Sequence record: LC788705.1 | From: Escherichia coli phage NG_A1 | Length of the DNA: 64,000 nucleotides | Strand: one strand, 5' to 3' | Shown here: piece by piece, positions 20,639 through 49,732 of the stretch | Layout of the letters: each line of letters opens with the position of its first letter | Numbering within the stretch: the stretch's first letter is position 1 | Translations under genes and position numbers: made by a program | The notes under the pieces: model-generated | Seen by the model: only the letters and a program-made list of their open reading frames with translations | What the model was told of the DNA's origin: nothing | The model's database searches: none

Positions 20639-21406
20639 TTATTCAGCAGCCGCAGCTTTTGCATCCAGTTTAGCACGCTTAGCGGCACCATCATAGTCCT
20701 TAGCAACCAGACCACGACGAGACAGCATAGATTTAACACCGCGCTCAGACTTACCAGTTTTCTCAGCGATCTCAGCAACAGTCATGTTAACCAGATCCAG
20801 ACCTTCTAACAGATCTTCACGAGTTTTAGCACTTGAGGTTTCCTGTACCGGCATAGCAGCGATACGACCTTCACGAAGCAGGCTCAGAGCTTTACCGCGG
20901 ATCTGCTTAATATTACGACCGAAGTGAGCAGCGATAGCTTCAATAGTAGCACCAGCAACAACCTGATTAACAAAATCAGTTTCTTCATCTGGAGTGAAGG
21001 AACGAACAGCAGCAGCTTTTTCGGTTGGCTTAACAGAAGCGGTCATTTCCAGACTCAGAATCTTACCCTGTACCTGCTTAGCACCGAACTGACCACCAGC
21101 CACAGCAGCAGCGATTTCAGCATAGGTATACTGACCAGCATGAGCGTTCAGGAAATCAACCAGTTCAGCTTCCTGCTCAGGAGTCCACGGGGATTTCTGT
21201 ACTTCGTTAGCTTTCTGTACTTCAAAACCTTCTTTACGCAGTTTAGAGCCAACAGAGCGAGCGGTAACATCTTTGCCAGTTTCAGCGGCCAGTTCAGCAG
21301 CGATAGCAGCTACTTGTTCTTGAGAGATTACAGCAACACCCAGAGCAGTGGCTTTTGCTTTCAGAGACTCGGTTACACCTTCTACGTTCCAGTTCAGTTT
21401 AGACAT
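20639..21406 (-). CDS. DNA-binding protein with three HTH-like repeat modules (T5 D5-like)
   Basis: 255 aa, Ala-rich; three ~45-aa repeats each ending in a helix-turn-helix-like stretch (e.g. MTVAEIAEKTGKSERGVKSMLSRRGL). Confidence 0.5.
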   Translation of the reverse strand: MSKLNWNVEGVTESLKAKATALGVAVISQEQVAAIAAELAAETGKDVTARSVGSKLRKEGFEVQKANEVQKSPWTPEQEAELVDFLNAHAGQYTYAEIAAAVAGGQFGAKQVQGKILSLEMTASVKPTEKAAAVRSFTPDEETDFVNQVVAGATIEAIAAHFGRNIKQIRGKALSLLREGRIAAMPVQETSSAKTREDLLEGLDLVNMTVAEIAEKTGKSERGVKSMLSRRGLVAKDYDGAAKRAKLDAKAAAAE

Positions 21407-26384: not shown

Positions 26385-26622
26385 TTTCTTTAATCAATTC
26401 TCCCAATTCTCTATAGATTTGATCTAACTCAAAAGATATACGTAATGATATACTTTGCTTTCTCTGCTTTAGCAACCATGCGCCTATACCATTTATGGAT
26501 GCTAGTCTAGCAGGAACCACCCTACATAGCTTTTCCGAAGTATCATAAACAGGAACTTTACGTTCTTTTACTGGAAACTTCCTTGTTTCCCATTTTTTAT
26601 TCTTCACTGTCATTTCTAGCAC
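26362..26622 (-). CDS. Hypothetical protein
   Basis: 86-aa ORF overlapping neighbours. Confidence 0.35.
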   Translation of the reverse strand: MLEMTVKNKKWETRKFPVKERKVPVYDTSEKLCRVVPARLASINGIGAWLLKQRKQSISLRISFELDQIYRELGELIKENDNTGRG

Positions 26623-29386
26623 CTAGCTCTGACATTGCTTCATCGTGCATATGTTTTTCCTCGTCAGTCATGAACTTATAAGGAATCGGCATACATTCGA
26701 TTTTACAATAGGTTCTGTACCAGTCTACTATATTTTCAGTGTTCATATCCTTACCAATACCCATCATACCAAGATACATTCTTGCATATTTTGGATTAGC
26801 ACTCTGACCTGTTTTAAGGAAGAAGTCCTTCTTCTTACCTTTCAGAGCTTCTATGAATGGTTTAATGGTCACATTTGAACACTTCTTAATATCTTCCCAG
26901 AACATCTCGTGCATCTTATGAAAGAATGCAGCTCGATCATTTGGTTTATCTTTGATATATTGTTCAACATGCTCAACTGTTACATCTTTAATAGACTCAA
27001 GATGATAATAGCGAACAAGAAGTAGTTTAGCTTCATACGCATCTGCATGACGTGGGGCACAGTAATCCGGAGTTGAATGTAGGATAGCTTTGATTCGCTC
27101 TTCTGTATATTCTTTGCCTGCACCTTCGATAGTTCCCCAGCTTTCACTGAAAATATCAATAGTTGCACCCTGATCAAGCAAGTAATAACGTAAGGTACTA
27201 GTATAGTTCCTAGATTCCAGCTCCCTACGACGTGCGTATAATTGCTGTGCTAACTCCAGCCAACCCTCATCAATATTATATTGTTCAGAACCTGCGGAGA
27301 ATCCACTCGTAGATTTATCAATAAAGTAATAAATGTTCTGAGCACCACGGTCGCGCCTGATTGCTTGGAAACGCATGTTTGGCGCTTGGTTGCTGGTTCT
27401 AGTAATAACGAATACGTTATCAAAATAGTTGAAGTCAACGCCACTTGTTACGGATGGACTACATAATAAGCAATCAATTTGTTGGTCAATTAGCTCATTA
27501 GTTGTGTAATCCAGAATACGTCGAATATCTACATCGGATGTAGAATTTGAGTGGATTTCCTTAACTAACGCACCCGTATTACGACGCAATGCCATGCCCT
27601 TCTCATTCAGTTCATCCGGTCCACAGTCAGATACTAGGATAGATTTCTCACCCATCTCTAGAGAAGTCTGAAGTGCAACCCAAATACTGGATTCATCAGG
27701 GAACTCATAAGCATGAGCTTTTGACAGCATTTTACGGTGATGATTATAAAATGCAACTGGTTTATCAAACTCAATCAAAGAACCATATGCTTCAATTGTT
27801 TCTGCACTAATATCCCCATCAGATAATATAATGATTTTTGCAGTTGCAAGAATATCCCGAAGAACCTGAATACATTCACGACGTTGTTTAACAACCGGGG
27901 CGAATAATAGGTCGTTCATTACTGCATCACATTCATCGATAAAGATTGCATCAATTTGACCAATAAAACTCTTGAACTTATGCAAAGAGTGAATAGTTGT
28001 GGACATACGGTCAATAGCACCACGCTTAAAATTAAGCATATCTACAGACTTATCGTATTGTCCTGCACTAAATTTCTTAGCATTTGAAGATACCAGTGCT
28101 CTAGTATTGGTAATTGCTAAAAAATTACCTTTAATAACTCCTGAATCTAACCAACGCACAACCGCCGTGGTTTTACCTGTGCCTAAACTCGCTTTTACAA
28201 AAGTCATATAACCTTCTGGTGGCACAGTATTTAGTTTCAAGAAATTATCAGTTTCTAGAGAATTAGTTTCTAGCTTTTTAAGTGGAATACCTTTTAAAAT
28301 ATCGGGTATATCGCGTTTAGAATTATTAACAAACGCTTTCAGAGCCTGCTTACGACCGTTATTAAAATAATCTTGAATATTACGACTGTTATCTTTAGTT
28401 GCGATATATTCTGATAAGGCTGGACGGATTTCTTTTTCTAGCCATGCAAAATCAACACCATCCTCTAATGCTCTATGGTATAGTTTGGGGATAATACGCA
28501 AGTACACCCCATCCTCAGCTTCTTCTAGTTCGCTGATAGTTTCCTCTACTTTATCAGAGGCAGCTTTTTTACCTTTAATTTGATCGAGTAAAGAGTAAAA
28601 CTCCTCCTTAAACTCACCTCTAGTTGTTTCATAGTCAACCAGATTATTTGGTAAATTTACTTTAGAACCTTTAACAAATACCAGACGTGAAGCACCCTCC
28701 GCTTTAAACGGATCTACTATACCATCGGTAAATAACGGATCTGCAAAATAATGGAGCTGTACGGAAGAGTAATAAGCTAAGTCGGCAATATCAAAGCCGT
28801 ACTTTTGTCTACTACTTTCATTGATAGATGTAAATAAGAATTTGATTTGACCCTGAGTTACTTTAACATTAGATTCTAGTATTAAGTGCATTCGGATACC
28901 TGGTTTTAGCCCAGCCGAAGACGATGCATGAGCGATAAACCCTGCATCAAGAGGAAACATATCCTCACTAATACTATTTAACATCCTAATAATATGTCGA
29001 GCCATGCCAACAAGATCAAACTTGTTACAACCACCTGTATCTACAATACCATCCACGTCCATTGCAATTATATGACTTGGGTTAGATACATTAAAGTTGC
29101 CCTTCTTACGTCGCACATTATTTTTAGGTGCAAGACATCGACCTCGTACCGCAACGATATGAGGGTCAGACGTTAAACGTCTCATAAGAGGAAGCATTTC
29201 TACTAGGGTTTGAGGATCAACTTCATCAATTACATCAAACTTGAAGGGCATTGAGGCTGGTTTACCTTCAGGATGCTTTGAGGAAAATCTTTTAGCAAAA
29301 AGATAGTCTTCTGCTTTAACTTCTCGCCAATTGCCTGTGGCTAAATCGCGATGAAATCCTGCATGACCTTGTAGGATTGAGAACAT
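26597..29386 (-). CDS. Replication origin-binding-protein-like SF2 helicase
   Basis: About 929 aa; Walker A (GTGKTT), DExD-like Walker B (IFIDECDAV); start placed at ATG 29386 with AGGAG RBS, not the TTG at 29464. Confidence 0.7.
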   Translation of the reverse strand: MFSILQGHAGFHRDLATGNWREVKAEDYLFAKRFSSKHPEGKPASMPFKFDVIDEVDPQTLVEMLPLMRRLTSDPHIVAVRGRCLAPKNNVRRKKGNFNVSNPSHIIAMDVDGIVDTGGCNKFDLVGMARHIIRMLNSISEDMFPLDAGFIAHASSSAGLKPGIRMHLILESNVKVTQGQIKFLFTSINESSRQKYGFDIADLAYYSSVQLHYFADPLFTDGIVDPFKAEGASRLVFVKGSKVNLPNNLVDYETTRGEFKEEFYSLLDQIKGKKAASDKVEETISELEEAEDGVYLRIIPKLYHRALEDGVDFAWLEKEIRPALSEYIATKDNSRNIQDYFNNGRKQALKAFVNNSKRDIPDILKGIPLKKLETNSLETDNFLKLNTVPPEGYMTFVKASLGTGKTTAVVRWLDSGVIKGNFLAITNTRALVSSNAKKFSAGQYDKSVDMLNFKRGAIDRMSTTIHSLHKFKSFIGQIDAIFIDECDAVMNDLLFAPVVKQRRECIQVLRDILATAKIIILSDGDISAETIEAYGSLIEFDKPVAFYNHHRKMLSKAHAYEFPDESSIWVALQTSLEMGEKSILVSDCGPDELNEKGMALRRNTGALVKEIHSNSTSDVDIRRILDYTTNELIDQQIDCLLCSPSVTSGVDFNYFDNVFVITRTSNQAPNMRFQAIRRDRGAQNIYYFIDKSTSGFSAGSEQYNIDEGWLELAQQLYARRRELESRNYTSTLRYYLLDQGATIDIFSESWGTIEGAGKEYTEERIKAILHSTPDYCAPRHADAYEAKLLLVRYYHLESIKDVTVEHVEQYIKDKPNDRAAFFHKMHEMFWEDIKKCSNVTIKPFIEALKGKKKDFFLKTGQSANPKYARMYLGMMGIGKDMNTENIVDWYRTYCKIECMPIPYKFMTDEEKHMHDEAMSELGARNDSEE

Positions 29387-29885
29387 AACAATACTCCTGT
29401 GTTGGAAATAAAATAAGTTTTCTTTAGGACTATTCAGAAAGAATAGAACAACTGTTACTGTCAATTTCTCAACAAATTAATCGCAAATACTGAAGTGGGG
29501 TGGCAACTTCCACTTTCACGCTGCGCTGCTGCTTTGCTATATCGCACAAATCCTTGAGGATGGCCGCTAAGCCAGATTTGCTCACCTAATGCTTCATATA
29601 CTAGCTCATACTAGATGCAATATAACTTACAGAATCACGTCTCGGAGTTTTTCACTCCTCCCATCTCACTTCACAACCACCTCATACTAGGTTGCTTCGA
29701 GGCCTTACCAGGGTTCCTATGGGACGCAGATCGCTAAGTATTCTATTAACTATTTGTTTAAAAACTAACACGTAACAGTTAAAACAACCCTTAATGGGGC
29801 AGCCTAACTGTTCCGTATCGCGGATTGTAAACAAGAAAAATTAGCAAAATCAATTTTTACTAATGTCTCTCAATTCAATATAAAT

Positions 29886-29914
29886 ATTATATCAAGATTT
29901 TGGGCATCCTGCAA
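29886..29914 (-). promoter_or_regulatory. Promoter driving the long non-coding leader upstream of the origin-binding-protein gene
   Basis: Minus-strand TTGCAG-N17-TATAAT; about 480 nt of ORF-free transcript would precede the gene. Confidence 0.55.
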
Positions 29915-30005
29915 GTAAAATTTTCCGGATGGTGCTATCATTGGTCTTGAGTACGGATAAAACCGAGCCAAAATGACTCGGTAATCAGAGTTCAGCTAAT
30001 AAAAA

Positions 30006-30398
30006 TCATTCATCATTTAAGCCTGGAACATAAATCCCAACACGGTTTAATTGTTCTTTAGCTTCTTTGAGAATATCTGGAGTGTACTCCCAAATATCAT
30101 CTTCCACCTGTAAAAGATGGGGCGAACAACCATCATCCGACACACGACATATGGCCAAACCACGTGGGTGGAACAAAGAGAAATTTAGGGCAACAATTAA
30201 ACCCATAGCAGACAACTCATTCCAATCCAACTCCCATTCCCCCGCGTAGCCGGATAGGAAAACACCAACACAGGGATCATCTATTTGCTGCTCCGGAAAA
30301 GTGAAGGAGGCTTGTCTTACCCCCAACCAACGTTGCAGCAGCTTCTCCCCACGTTTCACCAAACTAGGATCAATCTGACGCCAATATACTTGTTCCAT
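30006..30398 (-). CDS. Hypothetical protein, tandem paralog A
   Basis: 130 aa; shares PC(V/I)G...W.EL..MGL..ALN..LF.P...PGL pattern with 30408-30836. Confidence 0.5.
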   Translation of the reverse strand: MEQVYWRQIDPSLVKRGEKLLQRWLGVRQASFTFPEQQIDDPCVGVFLSGYAGEWELDWNELSAMGLIVALNFSLFHPRGLAICRVSDDGCSPHLLQVEDDIWEYTPDILKEAKEQLNRVGIYVPGLNDE

Positions 30399-35704: not shown

Positions 35705-35720
35705 TAAATTCTCCTTAATT

Positions 35721-35751
35721 CACATATTATACATAATTCCACCCCATACGT
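35721..35751 (-). promoter_or_regulatory. Leftward promoter of divergent control region
   Basis: Minus-strand TTGACG-N17-TATAAT at the edge of the AT-rich 35705-36031 spacer. Confidence 0.5.
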
Positions 35752-35926
35752 CAACTACATTTTTCTAATACTATTTGACTTTTGATTTTTATCAATTTTT
35801 ATTGATGCTATACAGCATAATATCTTTACATATAAATAAATGATTATCTAGTATCATATTTCTACCTTTATAAGCAAGTAAATTTTTTATTTAAAAGCAA
35901 TATCATAGGTTTATTTAAAATTATAC

Positions 35927-35955
35927 TTGCTTTTTGCTGTAAACCTTGTTATAAT
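35927..35955 (+). promoter_or_regulatory. Rightward early promoter (phoH operon)
   Basis: TTGCTT-N17-TATAAT with A/T-rich upstream element. Confidence 0.65.
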
Positions 35956-36031
35956 ATATTTGTAAGTTGATAAACAAGATCTCTTTGTTGATCCTCTGTT
36001 AGAAGCGAAGTACACTATAGGAGTGTTATTT

Positions 36032-48720: not shown

Positions 48721-49732
48721 ATATTCATAAATTAGAGAACAGCGAGCCGATTACGCTGAACTTGTCTTAATGTAAGATGCGTCGAGCACTAAGATTCGTT
48801 GAATAGAGTCGGTGGGTTAGTTGTAAAACTAGTACACAGGGGGCGGCAATCCCGGTTAGTGGCTAGAACGTGTAAAATGAGGCGTCTGAAACCTCTCCCC
48901 TAAACTCTTCTCTAATTTATAAATAGTGGGGTGTGGAAATCACTTATGTAGTAACACTGCCGTCCTAGTATAATTGGTATTATCAAGCCGTAACTGGTGG
49001 AAGATGTAGGTTCGAATCCTACGGTCGGTAAGAACTGGATAACTGATGCTTTTAATGTAAAAGCTTCCGAGGTTAGTTGCGCACTGCCTAAACCACGCGG
49101 TAGTTGGTTCCAGACTAACCAACCAGTCTGCTGAATAGTTTTATTACGATTTAACTATGTCCAGGCTAAAGAAGAACTTTAGAAGGTATTCTAGGATAGT
49201 GAAGTTCTTTCTCCATATCGGAGTAGTTTTTCAAGCTATCCACAAAGTGGGAAATGCTGACATGAGAGATGTCACTAATGGTGCACAATAGCACAGGTAA
49301 TTCGCGATAACTCCTGTTGAGTAGCAGCAAAAGGTGGGAAGTCATGACCCCAAGCCTAACCGAGTCCTCAATATACCGCAGGACATAACTACTAAGTCAC
49401 CCTGACTTAAACTGGAAAATAATAGACGTTACTGTATTTTGTCTTGAAATACTTAATGAGTGAGACTTATGACTCTCCCGGTATCGTCTGTATTTTTAAG
49501 AGTTTTTACGAGAGTTCTTAAAAATACTTAAACGGGGTGTAGTCTAAGGGAGAGGCAGGAGTCTTCTAAATTCCTTTATGCAGGTTCGAATCCCTTGTCA
49601 CGCACCAAATTTGATGGTCAGAGTAAATTAAACCTACTATCTCGGTTGAGCTGTTTTAATGGGTTCGAATCCCAGCGAGGCGTAACTGCCTGGTGTGATA
49701 GAGGCATCATTCCACTAACATTGGAAAAACTA

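What the first reader, a model, noticed from the sequence alone, without database searches (positions are those of the whole stretch)
29387..30005. 620-nt ORF-free, promoter-driven region with direct repeats beside the origin-binding-protein gene: candidate replication origin or structured leader/ncRNA
In an otherwise tightly packed genome, about 620 nt upstream (minus strand) of the SF2 origin-binding-protein-like helicase gene contain no ORF over a few codons. A TTGCAG-N17-TATAAT promoter (29886-29914) points into the region. It carries short direct repeats (CTCATACTAG at about 29604 and 29682, plus a CATATACTAG variant), pyrimidine-rich CTCAC tracts and hairpins (e.g. GAAGTGG...CCACTT at 29492-29515). 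Promoter-primed origins next to the initiator gene are known from T7 and T4; here that reading is inference.
Basis: partly seen in the sequence, partly recalled or inferred. Interest (0 to 1): 0.65.

Follow-up and report, generated by a model that had tools for sequence, protein, structure and literature searches.

The report
Structured leader RNA of T5 helicase
The "empty" 620 bases in front of the replication-helicase gene of this T5-like phage hold a terminator, an early promoter and an undescribed, roughly 430-base intricately folded RNA whose shape, not sequence, is kept across T5-like phages of enterobacteria, and whose function is unknown but probably tied to starting DNA replication.

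Summary
The window is a T5-like phage (99.8% identical to T5_ev212). Region 29387-30005 lies between the T5.107 homologue and the UL9-like helicase gene (OBP/T5.108). All features are on the minus strand. It contains a covarying terminator hairpin (29956-29981), the annotated early promoter (29886-29914) and a ~490-nt leader.

The leader is a large structured RNA. The consensus has 103 base pairs in 19 helices. 96% of cells are paired, against 37-45% when partners are slid. Fifty pairs carry compensatory changes, against 6-18 in the slid controls. There are 269 G·U cells but only 16 A·C cells, so the fold exists only on the OBP-sense strand.

T5 itself carries a core of the same length and architecture that cannot be aligned by sequence. 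Covariance models find the central domain at the same position in Pectobacterium, Klebsiella and Providencia phages, and nowhere in 712 kb of unrelated viral DNA.

No Rfam family matches, no ORF is conserved, and I found no published description.

Origin function remains untested. My best reading is an RNA element that works together with OBP. The mechanism is inferred.

The parts
29956..29981 (-). Intrinsic terminator hairpin of the upstream operon (ACCGAGUC-AUUUU-GGCUCGGU followed by a U-run).
   Evidence: Sequence. Annotated as a terminator in T5 and Lindwurm. The stem covaries in Pectobacterium (GACCAAGUC/GACUUGGUC) and Klebsiella (GACCAGAGG/CCUCUGGUC) phages.
29886..29914 (-). Early promoter (TTGCAG-17-TATAAT with an A/T-rich upstream element). 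The transcription start is inferred near 29879.
   Evidence: Annotated as a promoter in NC_005859 and as 'putative early promoter T5P32' in AY587007. ACTTGCA and TATAAT are invariant in 9 lineages. The start site itself is inferred, not mapped.
29833..29871 (-). 5'-terminal hairpin H1 (GAGAGA..UUAGUAAAA / UUUUGCUAA..UUUCUU). It is a separate module from the core.
   Evidence: MFE folds of all lineages show it with different stem sequences (UUAGACAAG/UUUGUCUAA, UUAGGCGUUU/AAGCGCCUAA and others). Insertions of 28-98 nt are tolerated just 3' of it.
29794..29816 (-). Conserved single-stranded or small-hairpin island ACGGAACAGUUAGGCUGCCCCAU.
   Evidence: Nearly invariant in type A, type B, Pectobacterium and Klebsiella phages. 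It occurs once in the window, against 0.02 expected.
29453..29777 (-). Autonomous core domain (~325 nt) closed by the long helix P2 (29765-29777 with 29453-29464, extended by 29748-29752/29478-29482 and 29739-29743/29485-29489). This is the block that differs completely between type A (this window) and type B (T5).
   Evidence: Consensus structure and pair counts. Window coordinates. Identity profile of the window against T5: 38-60% here, 94-100% in the flanks.
29518..29734 (-). Helix P4 (GCGAUCUGCGU 29724-29734 with GCGCAGCGU 29518-29526), which closes the multi-branch junction.
   Evidence: CUGCG/CGCAG changes to CUACA/UGUAG and to CUGUA/UACAG in relatives. 4 of 9 pairs carry compensatory changes. 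The same helix covaries in type B (UA to CG).
29660..29723 (-). Helix P5 (CCCAU 29719-29723 with AUGGG 29660-29664). It encloses hairpin P5a (29703-29712) and P5b (UCG/UGA 29698-29700 with 29666-29668, and GCAACC 29690-29695 with GGUUGU 29673-29678).
   Evidence: P5: 3 of 5 pairs compensatory. P5b: 4 of 6 (GCAACC/GGUUGU, GCUAUC/GAUAGC, ACAAUC/GAUUGU, CGGCA/UGCCG).
29644..29658 (-). Hairpin P6 (GGAGU-GAAAA-ACUCC), followed by the conserved GAGA(A/C)GUG at 29636-29643.
   Evidence: 3 of 5 pairs compensatory (GGAG/CUCC, AGAG/CUCU, GGGG/CCCU, CCG/CGG).
29533..29628 (-).
   Evidence: Covariance models R1 and R2 hit exactly here and at the same position in Pectobacterium, Klebsiella, Providencia and type-B phages. 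In alignment A10, 93.4% of cells are paired and 22 of 28 pairs are compensatory.
29562..29573 (-). Invariant motif GGCUUAGCGGCC in the P7b loop. It forms a mini-stem GCU/GGC around UAGC.
   Evidence: GCTTAGCGGC is identical in type A, type B, Pectobacterium DU_PP_V, Klebsiella and Providencia phages. CTTAGCGG is kept in My1-like and Proteus phages. The outer mini-stem pair covaries (G-C to A-U in L037).
29494..29514 (-). Hairpin P8 (AGUGG/CCACU) with the conserved loop AAGUUGCCACC.
   Evidence: 4 of 5 pairs compensatory (AGUGG/CCACU, AGGGG/CCCCU, AAGGG/CCCUU, GAGG/CCUC).
29430..29446 (-). Hairpin P9 (CUAUUC-UUUCU-GAAUAG) in the A/U-rich 3' linker.
   Evidence: The stem differs in Pectobacterium (CUUUCC/GGAAAG) and Klebsiella (CUAUC/GAUAG) phages.
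29384..29398 (-). Shine-Dalgarno AGGAG (29394-29398) and the OBP start codon ATG (29384-29386).
   Evidence: RBS annotated in Lindwurm. No conserved long-range sequestration is predicted.
26597..29386 (-). OBP / T5.108 gene, a 929-aa SF2 helicase with a Herpes_ori_bp match at residues 394-533. This is the gene the RNA always precedes.
   Evidence: Characterised biochemically as the T5 'D2' bipolar helicase (PMC3632103).

Best explanation
SHOWN.
- The region holds the terminator of the upstream operon and then a conserved early promoter.
- Its transcript runs about 490 nt to the OBP start codon with no terminator in between.
- About 325 nt of the leader (29453-29777) form an autonomous multi-branched domain closed by a long helix. 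It contains at least 12 covarying helices and a few invariant loops: GCU[UAGC]GGC, AGUUGCCAC and ACGGAACAGUUnGGCUGCCCCAU. A 5' hairpin and a 3' hairpin flank it.
- The fold exists only on the OBP-sense strand, so it acts as RNA (or as that single strand), not as duplex DNA.
- Architecture and length are kept across Tequintavirus, Epseptimavirus, Pectobacterium, Klebsiella and Providencia phages, while the sequence turns over completely.

INFERRED.
The element is found only directly upstream of OBP. It behaves as an exchangeable cassette together with the more variable N-terminal half of OBP. I therefore propose that it works in cis with OBP as a folded binding platform. OBP itself, or another early factor, would bind the platform. 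This binding would couple OBP synthesis, or loading of OBP on the neighbouring DNA, to the start of replication. It is not an iteron array and not a small protein gene.
For: - Covariation on the consensus structure: 103 pairs, 96.0% of cells paired against 37-45% for slid partners; 50 pairs with changes on both sides against 6-18 slid and 12.3±2.7 shuffled (0 of 500).
- The same test with a structure predicted from the window sequence alone: 49 compensatory pairs against 14-24 slid.
- Strand specificity: 269 G·U against 16 A·C cells. Sense MFE -135.2 kcal/mol (z -2.97) against antisense -105.9 (z -1.91).
- Type B (T5): same helix order and same length, with 6 compensatory pairs between the T5 and Epseptimavirus groups against 0-1 slid.
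- A covariance model built from window-type sequences finds full-length hits at the same position in four other lineages. The rebuilt model finds held-out L036 (E 4e-12) and L037 (E 0.008). It gives no hit in 72 unrelated viral loci (712 kb).
- Leader length is 468-493 nt in four genera.
- No ORF is conserved.
- The element is always immediately 5' of OBP, behind its own promoter.
- Vibrio members of the family also have a promoter and a 600-840-nt gap upstream of OBP.
- The divergent block between the window and T5 is the RNA core plus the first ~1600 nt of OBP.
Against: - There is no transcript, 5'-end or structure-probing data. The start site and RNA ends are inferred.
- The ensemble calculation shows no conserved long-range sequestration of the Shine-Dalgarno sequence by the core, and no terminator follows the core. 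The usual expression platforms of cis-regulators are therefore missing.
- Proteus phage Stubb has a perfect-consensus promoter between the RNA region and OBP. OBP can probably be made there without the leader.
- The RNA core and the OBP N-terminus do not track each other closely. Types A and B have OBP N-termini 91% identical but cores that cannot be aligned, whereas L054 has a type-A-like core with an OBP only 71% identical.
- Homology of the Vibrio and Proteus regions could not be shown.
Confidence: 0.5

Rival explanations
1. Transcription-primed replication origin with a structured pre-primer RNA, as in ColE1 RNA II. The early promoter makes the folded RNA. Its 3' A/U-rich part (about 29387-29452) forms a persistent hybrid or R-loop with the template. 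The hybrid primes leading-strand synthesis and gives OBP helicase an entry site. The fold directs hybrid formation.
For: - The promoter points into the region next to the initiator-like helicase gene.
- The RNA is about 490 nt and highly structured, like RNA II (my knowledge).
- The 3' ~70 nt are A/U-rich and are conserved between types A and B (87-97%) while the core is not.
- The site lies at 59.0-59.5 kb of the 121.75-kb T5 genome, about 48.7%. From memory, Bourguignon et al. 1976 (cited in PMC3632103) placed the main first-round origin near the middle of the T5 genome.
- The variable block of RNA core plus OBP N-terminal half resembles a replicon-specificity module.
- The extra OBP promoter in Stubb fits an RNA role independent of OBP expression.
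Against: - No origin has been mapped here.
- There is no conserved antisense promoter. The only opposite-strand promoter-like site scores 9 of 12, at 29385-29414.
- An RNA that is 96% internally paired is a poor R-loop former over most of its length.
- The core is G+C-rich relative to its flanks.
- No G-cluster or C-tract hybrid signal is evident.
Confidence: 0.25
2. A trans-acting non-coding RNA that merely sits in the OBP 5' UTR and is perhaps processed out of it. It could be an RNP scaffold (as phi29 pRNA is for its ATPase), a self-assembling ornate RNA like ROOL or GOLLD, or a decoy against a host defence or a host RNA-binding protein.
For: - The core is a self-contained domain closed by a long helix, and about 55 nt and a hairpin separate it from the ribosome-binding site.
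- No expression platform was found.
- Its size and complexity resemble the large ornate phage RNAs (my knowledge).
- Sequence turnover is extreme and cassette-like, and core similarity disagrees with the OBP tree. This is typical of arms-race loci.
- Stubb has a separate OBP promoter.
Against: - The element was never found away from OBP.
- No terminator or recognisable processing site defines a separate RNA.
- The one candidate base-pairing target of the invariant loop is at chance level and is not conserved.
- There is no match to any Rfam ncRNA.
Confidence: 0.2
3. A duplex-DNA origin of the iteron type. OBP would bind the repeated CTCATACTAG boxes and melt an adjacent AT-rich element.
For: Two exact copies and one variant of a decamer lie within 90 nt. 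The site is next to a gene named 'replication origin binding protein'.
Against: - The decamers are not conserved even among close relatives and are absent in other lineages.
- About 0.2 such repeats are expected by chance.
- They lie in RNA hairpin loops.
- Conservation follows base-pairing with abundant G·U, which duplex DNA sites do not need.
- The invariant motifs (GCTTAGCGGC and the 23-nt island) are single-copy in the region.
Confidence: 0.04
4. The region encodes one or more small proteins, as some GenBank annotations suggest.
For: ORFs of 27-50 codons exist on both strands. Salmonella phage WP85 annotates three of them as hypothetical proteins.
Against: No ORF is kept between types A and B, Pectobacterium, Klebsiella and Providencia phages. 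Most have GTG or TTG starts. There is no cross-lineage protein similarity beyond what nucleotide identity explains. Substitutions are compensatory for RNA pairing, not codon-patterned.
Confidence: 0.01

Closest known systems
ColE1 RNA II pre-primer and the promoter-primed phage origins (T7 phi1.1A/B, T4 oriF and oriG)
   Same: A strong promoter fires into a non-coding stretch beside replication genes. For RNA II, the transcript is also ~500 nt, its folding matters, its 5' part diverges and its 3' part is conserved.
   Different: No origin activity, R-loop or RNase H processing is known here. There is no antisense RNA I-like partner. The T4 and T7 origins rely on an AT-rich unwinding element rather than a conserved RNA fold. 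The fold here is far more elaborate.
Structured leaders of replication-initiator genes (IncFII repA/CopT, IncI-alpha repZ pseudoknot) and T4 gene 32/43 translational operators
   Same: An RNA structure in the 5' UTR of a replication protein gene. In T4 the protein binds its own mRNA.
   Different: Those elements are small (20-150 nt) and overlap or directly control the ribosome-binding site. This domain is ~325 nt and self-contained, and no conserved pairing with the RBS is predicted. No antisense RNA is evident.
Large ornate phage-associated ncRNAs (GOLLD, ROOL; Rfam)
   Same: Hundreds of nucleotides, many helices, phage-borne, structure conserved with few invariant loops, function not evident from context.
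   Different: No similarity to their covariance models. Those RNAs are stand-alone genes, often near tRNAs. This one is fixed in the 5' UTR of one particular gene.
phi29 pRNA
   Same: A phage-encoded RNA, driven by an early promoter, whose secondary structure is kept among relatives with almost no sequence identity, and which works with a phage ATPase.
   Different: pRNA is 120-174 nt, is a separate transcript and acts in DNA packaging. No RNP has been shown here.
HSV-1 oriS* hairpin recognised by UL9
   Same: OBP here is a UL9 homologue (Pfam Herpes_ori_bp). From my knowledge, UL9 recognises a folded single-stranded form of its origin, so a covarying single-strand fold beside an OBP gene has a precedent.
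   Different: OriS* is a short DNA hairpin inside a palindromic duplex origin. This is a 325-nt multi-branch fold downstream of a promoter with 17% G·U pairs, which is much more RNA-like.

Membership tests
Any Rfam 15 RNA family | Match to a family covariance model at or near its gathering score | tested here: not met
   The gathering-score scan of the whole window finds only tRNAs. The permissive scan of 29300-30100 finds nothing better than E 2.2 and 15 bits. Nothing overlaps the homologous regions of 8 diverse loci.
Conserved structured RNA (generic) | Base pairs maintained by compensatory substitutions beyond relatedness controls | tested here: met
   Example: 50 compensatory pairs against 6-18 in slid controls.
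Conserved structured RNA (generic) | Strand specificity (G·U tolerated, A·C not) | tested here: met
   269 G·U against 16 A·C cells. MFE differs by 30 kcal/mol between strands.
Conserved structured RNA (generic) | Evidence that the strand is transcribed | tested here: inconclusive
   A conserved, annotated promoter in the right orientation and no intervening terminator. No expression data were available.
Promoter-primed phage origin (T7/T4 type) | Promoter directed into the element | tested here: met
Promoter-primed phage origin (T7/T4 type) | AT-rich DNA unwinding element just downstream of the promoter | tested here: inconclusive
   The first ~180 nt (GC 0.335) and the last ~65 nt are A/T-rich, but the core is GC 0.46, above its flanks.
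Promoter-primed phage origin (T7/T4 type) | Origin activity, R-loop, RNA-DNA junctions | not testable with these tools
   Needs replication-intermediate mapping.
Iteron-type origin | Several copies of a binding-site repeat conserved among relatives | tested here: not met
   The decamer repeats are not conserved. The invariant motifs are single-copy.
ColE1 RNA II-like primer | Antisense regulator RNA with its own promoter on the opposite strand | tested here: not met
   The only opposite-strand promoter-like site scores 9 of 12, at 29385-29414, within the number expected by chance.
Riboswitch / cis-regulatory leader | Expression platform: a conserved terminator, or Shine-Dalgarno sequestration coupled to the sensor domain | tested here: not met
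   No terminator-like site after the core. Predicted SD pairing is local and inconsistent among 9 lineages. An RNAalifold helix UUCUUGU/ACAGGAG (92% paired, 2 compensatory pairs) is possible, but the ensemble does not favour it.
Small protein-coding gene | ORF conserved in frame across lineages | tested here: not met
GOLLD / ROOL-type ornate ncRNA | Homology to the family model; stand-alone gene | tested here: not met
   No Rfam match. The element is always embedded in the OBP leader. The resemblance is in size and complexity only.

The most novel reading that the evidence does not exclude
The folded RNA is an obligatory RNA component of replication initiation in T5-like phages. As transcript or R-loop, it would specify the origin and recruit or activate the UL9-like OBP helicase. 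That would make it an RNA-specified origin whose exchangeable core cassette sets replicon specificity. It would also be the first large ornate RNA with a defined role in DNA replication of a classical model phage.
Probability: 0.2. Interest if true: 0.9.

Novelty: new variant of a known kind. Interest (0 to 1): 0.72.

Why it matters
T5 is a classical model phage, yet its origin of replication and its initiation mechanism have never been defined at the sequence level.

A ~430-nt RNA with many helices, conserved in architecture across several genera and fixed in front of the putative initiator helicase gene, is a concrete and testable handle on that question.

It also adds a new class to the short list of large, complex bacterial and phage RNAs. 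It does so in E. coli phages, which are easy to mutate, and for a protein (D2/OBP) that has already been purified (PMC3632103).

Two unalignable versions of the core with the same architecture exist among phages whose flanking genes are ~95% identical. That offers a natural swap experiment for specificity.

Practically, genome annotations that place 'hypothetical proteins' in this gap should be corrected.

Tried and rejected
1. Known RNA family: three Rfam scans gave no match. ARAGORN finds no tRNA or tmRNA in the region.
3. Small ORFs: none is conserved.
4. Trans target of the invariant loop: complementary 10-mers at 20677 and 21911 are at chance frequency (3 found against 1.74 expected) and absent from the homologous genes of Providencia phage PR1.
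5. SD sequestration by the core: not consistent across lineages.
6. Loop-loop (kissing) pairing between the P5a loop (GGUAA) and the P8 loop (UUGCC): checked by eye on A3. It is compatible in types A and B and mostly in L054, but broken in L026, so I do not claim it.
7. Homology of the Proteus (Stubb) and Vibrio upstream regions: model R2 with filters off gives only E>1. Folding z-scores are mixed, from +1.15 to -3.1. The Quinn-KIT04 alignment is too divergent for pair counting.
8. GC skew as an origin marker: the cumulative minimum is at ~35.7-36.0 kb, where the direction of transcription switches, not here.
9. N-terminal domain of OBP: no Pfam, PDB or informative PHROG match. Only 2 homologues could be retrieved for an alignment, so I did not attempt a structure prediction.
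10. A loose two-motif DNA pattern scan of viral contigs returned mostly chance hits. The covariance model kept only T5-like contigs.
11. Literature: five full-text searches and look-ups in two papers found no description of an RNA or a mapped origin at this locus. Two papers could not be opened.
Full report
IDENTITY AND LAYOUT

The window is a Tequintavirus. Region 29300-30100 is 99.8% identical to Escherichia phage T5_ev212, and 525-535 phage records match it.

All genes here are on the minus strand. The finding is the 619-nt gap between a DUF7415 gene (30006-30398, the T5.107 homologue) and the 929-aa 'replication origin binding protein' (26597-29386, T5.108). The protein is an SF2 helicase with a Herpes_ori_bp match at residues 394-533. 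Wong et al. characterised it biochemically as the bipolar helicase 'D2' and proposed it as an initiator (PMC3632103).

Read on the gene strand, the gap contains three things:
- A terminator hairpin (29981-29956).
- The promoter TTGCAG-17-TATAAT (29914-29886).
- About 490 nt of leader ending in AGGAG-N8-ATG.

T5 GenBank records annotate the terminator and the promoter ('putative early promoter T5P32') and nothing else in the gap.

CHECK OF THE OBSERVATION

The gap, the promoter, the hairpin at 29492-29515 and the CTCATACTAG copies are all present.

Two points are weaker than stated:
- ORFs of 27-50 codons do exist, but none is conserved.
- The decamer repeat is within chance and varies even among near-identical phages.

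COMPARATIVE PATTERN

I collected OBP loci from IMG/VR, metagenomes and GenBank phages.

The distance from promoter to ATG is strikingly constant:
- 468-493 nt in Tequintavirus, Epseptimavirus, Klebsiella (Sugarland-like) and Pectobacterium phages.
- 519 nt in a metagenomic relative.
- About 610 nt in Providencia phages.
- 761 nt in Proteus phage Stubb.

Larger insertions in some phages lie between the terminator and the promoter, or just after the 5' hairpin, never inside the core.

T5 itself and about half of the relatives ('type B') share the first ~240 nt and the last ~74 nt of the gap with this window ('type A'). They carry a ~300-nt core of the same length that BLAST cannot align.

Inside otherwise unrelated sequence a few islands are invariant. 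GCTTAGCGGC is identical from E. coli to Providencia phages. ACGGAACAGTTnGGCTGCCCCAT is nearly so.

STRUCTURE

An alignment of 15 type-A-like leaders was folded with RNAalifold. It included a metagenomic phage with 70% OBP identity and two Pectobacterium phages. The result is 103 pairs in 19 helices, 50 of them with compensatory double changes.

Independent pair counting on that structure gives:
- 96.0% of cells paired, against 37-45% when the 3' partners are slid by 1-3 columns.
- 50 compensatory pairs, against 6-18 slid and 12.3±2.7 in shuffles (0 of 500).

To avoid circularity I projected the minimum-free-energy fold of the window sequence alone onto the alignment. It still gives 49 compensatory pairs against 14-24 slid.

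Pairing is strand-specific. There are 269 G·U cells against 16 A·C cells, so 96% of cells pair on the sense strand but only 80% would pair on the antisense strand. The sense strand folds 30 kcal/mol better (z -2.97 against -1.91).

The architecture, with window coordinates, runs from 5' to 3' as follows:
- A 5' hairpin H1.
- The conserved island.
- A long closing helix P2.
- P4, which closes a junction from which three branches emerge: P5 (with P5a and P5b), P6, and P7 (with P7a and P7b).
- P8.
- A 3' hairpin P9 in an A/U-rich linker before the ribosome-binding site.

P7b carries the invariant GCU[UAGC]GGC.

TYPE B AND OTHER GENERA

The T5-type leaders fold into the same order of helices with the same conserved loops. 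The few substitutions that separate the T5 group from the Epseptimavirus group include 6 compensatory pairs, in P4, P7, P7a, P7b (two pairs) and P8. The slid controls give 0-1.

A covariance model built only from window-type P7 domains (R1) finds full-length matches at the same position in:
- Pectobacterium phage (E 1e-3),
- Klebsiella phage (0.01),
- Providencia phage (0.01),
- type-B phages (0.06-0.08).

In the resulting alignment 93.4% of cells pair and 22 of 28 pairs are compensatory. That alignment is fitted to the model, so it leans that way. The slid controls give 34-45% paired and 8-14 compensatory pairs.

The rebuilt model R2 recovers two sequences it was not trained on: L036 (E 4e-12) and L037 (E 0.008). 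It gives no hit at E≤0.01 in 72 unrelated viral loci totalling about 0.7 Mb, while re-finding all 8 T5-like contigs among them.

It does not detect the Proteus or Vibrio regions. For those I can only say the following:
- A promoter and a 600-840-nt gap precede OBP.
- Thalassavirus relatives repeat the pattern of conserved ends and an unalignable core.

WHAT IT IS NOT

- No Rfam 15 family matches.
- There is no tRNA or tmRNA.
- No ORF is conserved.
- There are no conserved repeats.
- The core is richer in G+C than its flanks.

FUNCTION

Three facts constrain it.

1. Strict synteny. The RNA is found only immediately 5' of OBP, behind its own promoter and after a terminator.

2. The core is a self-contained cassette.
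   - The switch between types A and B starts and ends at the base of P2.
   - Between this window and T5 the flanks are 94-100% identical.
   - The core is 38-60% identical.
   - The first ~1600 nt of OBP are 67-97% identical in a mosaic.
   - The rest of OBP is 93-97% identical.

3. The usual read-outs of a cis-regulator are missing.
   - No terminator follows the core.
   - No conserved sequestration of the ribosome-binding site is predicted.
   - Stubb has a perfect-consensus promoter between the RNA and OBP.

Against tight RNA-protein co-evolution, types A and B have 91% identical OBP N-termini, while the type-A-like core of L054 goes with a 71% identical OBP.

I therefore commit, at moderate confidence, to an RNA element that acts together with OBP at its own locus. 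It would be a folded platform that couples OBP synthesis or loading to replication initiation.

The sharper rival is a ColE1 RNA II-like, promoter-primed origin. The locus lies at 48.7% of the T5 genome. From memory, electron microscopy placed the main first-round origin near the centre of the genome. The paper I could read states only 'multiple internal origins'.

A trans-acting ncRNA, such as an RNP scaffold, a self-assembling RNA or a decoy, is the third option. One candidate antisense target of the invariant loop was tested and rejected.

NOVELTY

The terminator and the promoter are already annotated. The structured RNA is not: it is in no GenBank record examined, not in Rfam 15, and not in any paper found.

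It is a new RNA class within the known kind 'large structured phage RNA or leader'. It would become categorically new only if an RNA-dependent origin were shown.

Noticed in passing
window 35705-36022: A 318-nt divergent intergenic region with GC of only 0.225-0.315. Gene orientation and GC skew both flip here, and the cumulative skew reaches its minimum. It is an AT-rich candidate for divergent promoters, or an alternative origin.
   Followed up: partly
L004/L005/L023, L008/L013/L032, L030 (between terminator and promoter upstream of the RNA): Insertions of about 170, 506 and 630 nt between the terminator and the RNA promoter in some T5-like phages. The 506-nt insert brings a different promoter (TTGCAAGGGAGTATTATTTTATAGTATAAT) that then drives the same RNA.
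   Followed up: partly
L009, L024, L031 (leader ~590 nt); L054:363-881: An extra segment is tolerated exactly between the 5' hairpin H1 and the conserved island: ~98 nt in three phages and a 28-nt hairpin in L054. H1 and the core therefore appear to be separate modules.
   Followed up: partly
L038:2435-2464 (Proteus phage Stubb): A perfect-consensus promoter TTGACA-18-TATAAT lies between the long upstream non-coding region and the OBP start codon, so OBP may be transcribed there without the long leader.
   Followed up: no
L044:1936-1991 and 2047-2102 (Vibrio phage PG07): Two copies of a ~56-nt direct repeat (GACTATCACTTTGTAGCCTCAATCCTCGGATTGTGTGAGTCAGTTAACTTCTGTCG) lie inside the OBP-upstream gap.
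   Followed up: no
L042, L056, L057 (Vibrio Thalassavirus-like phages): The OBP-upstream gap of Quinn and Chloris, compared with KIT04, has a conserved 5' ~160 nt and a conserved 3' ~30 nt but an unalignable core. This is the same pattern as T5 type A against type B.
   Followed up: partly
window 48959-49030 and 49532-49607: The two tRNA callers disagree. Rfam alone reports a weak tRNA (35.5 bits) at 48959-49030. ARAGORN alone reports tRNA-Arg(tct) at 49532-49607.
   Followed up: no
window 26597-29386 (OBP), residues 1-390: The N-terminal 390 residues of the helicase have no Pfam or PDB sequence match, and the large protein collection returned only two fragmentary homologues. The first ~530 residues (first ~1600 nt) are also the part of OBP that is more variable between phage types.
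   Followed up: partly
L002 (Salmonella phage WP85) 1670-2172, and other GenBank records: Several deposited genomes annotate 33-60-codon 'hypothetical proteins' inside the structured RNA region. Other records label OBP as 'DNA primase C', 'tail tube protein' or 'U3 snoRNA-associated protein 25'. These are probably annotation artefacts.
   Followed up: partly
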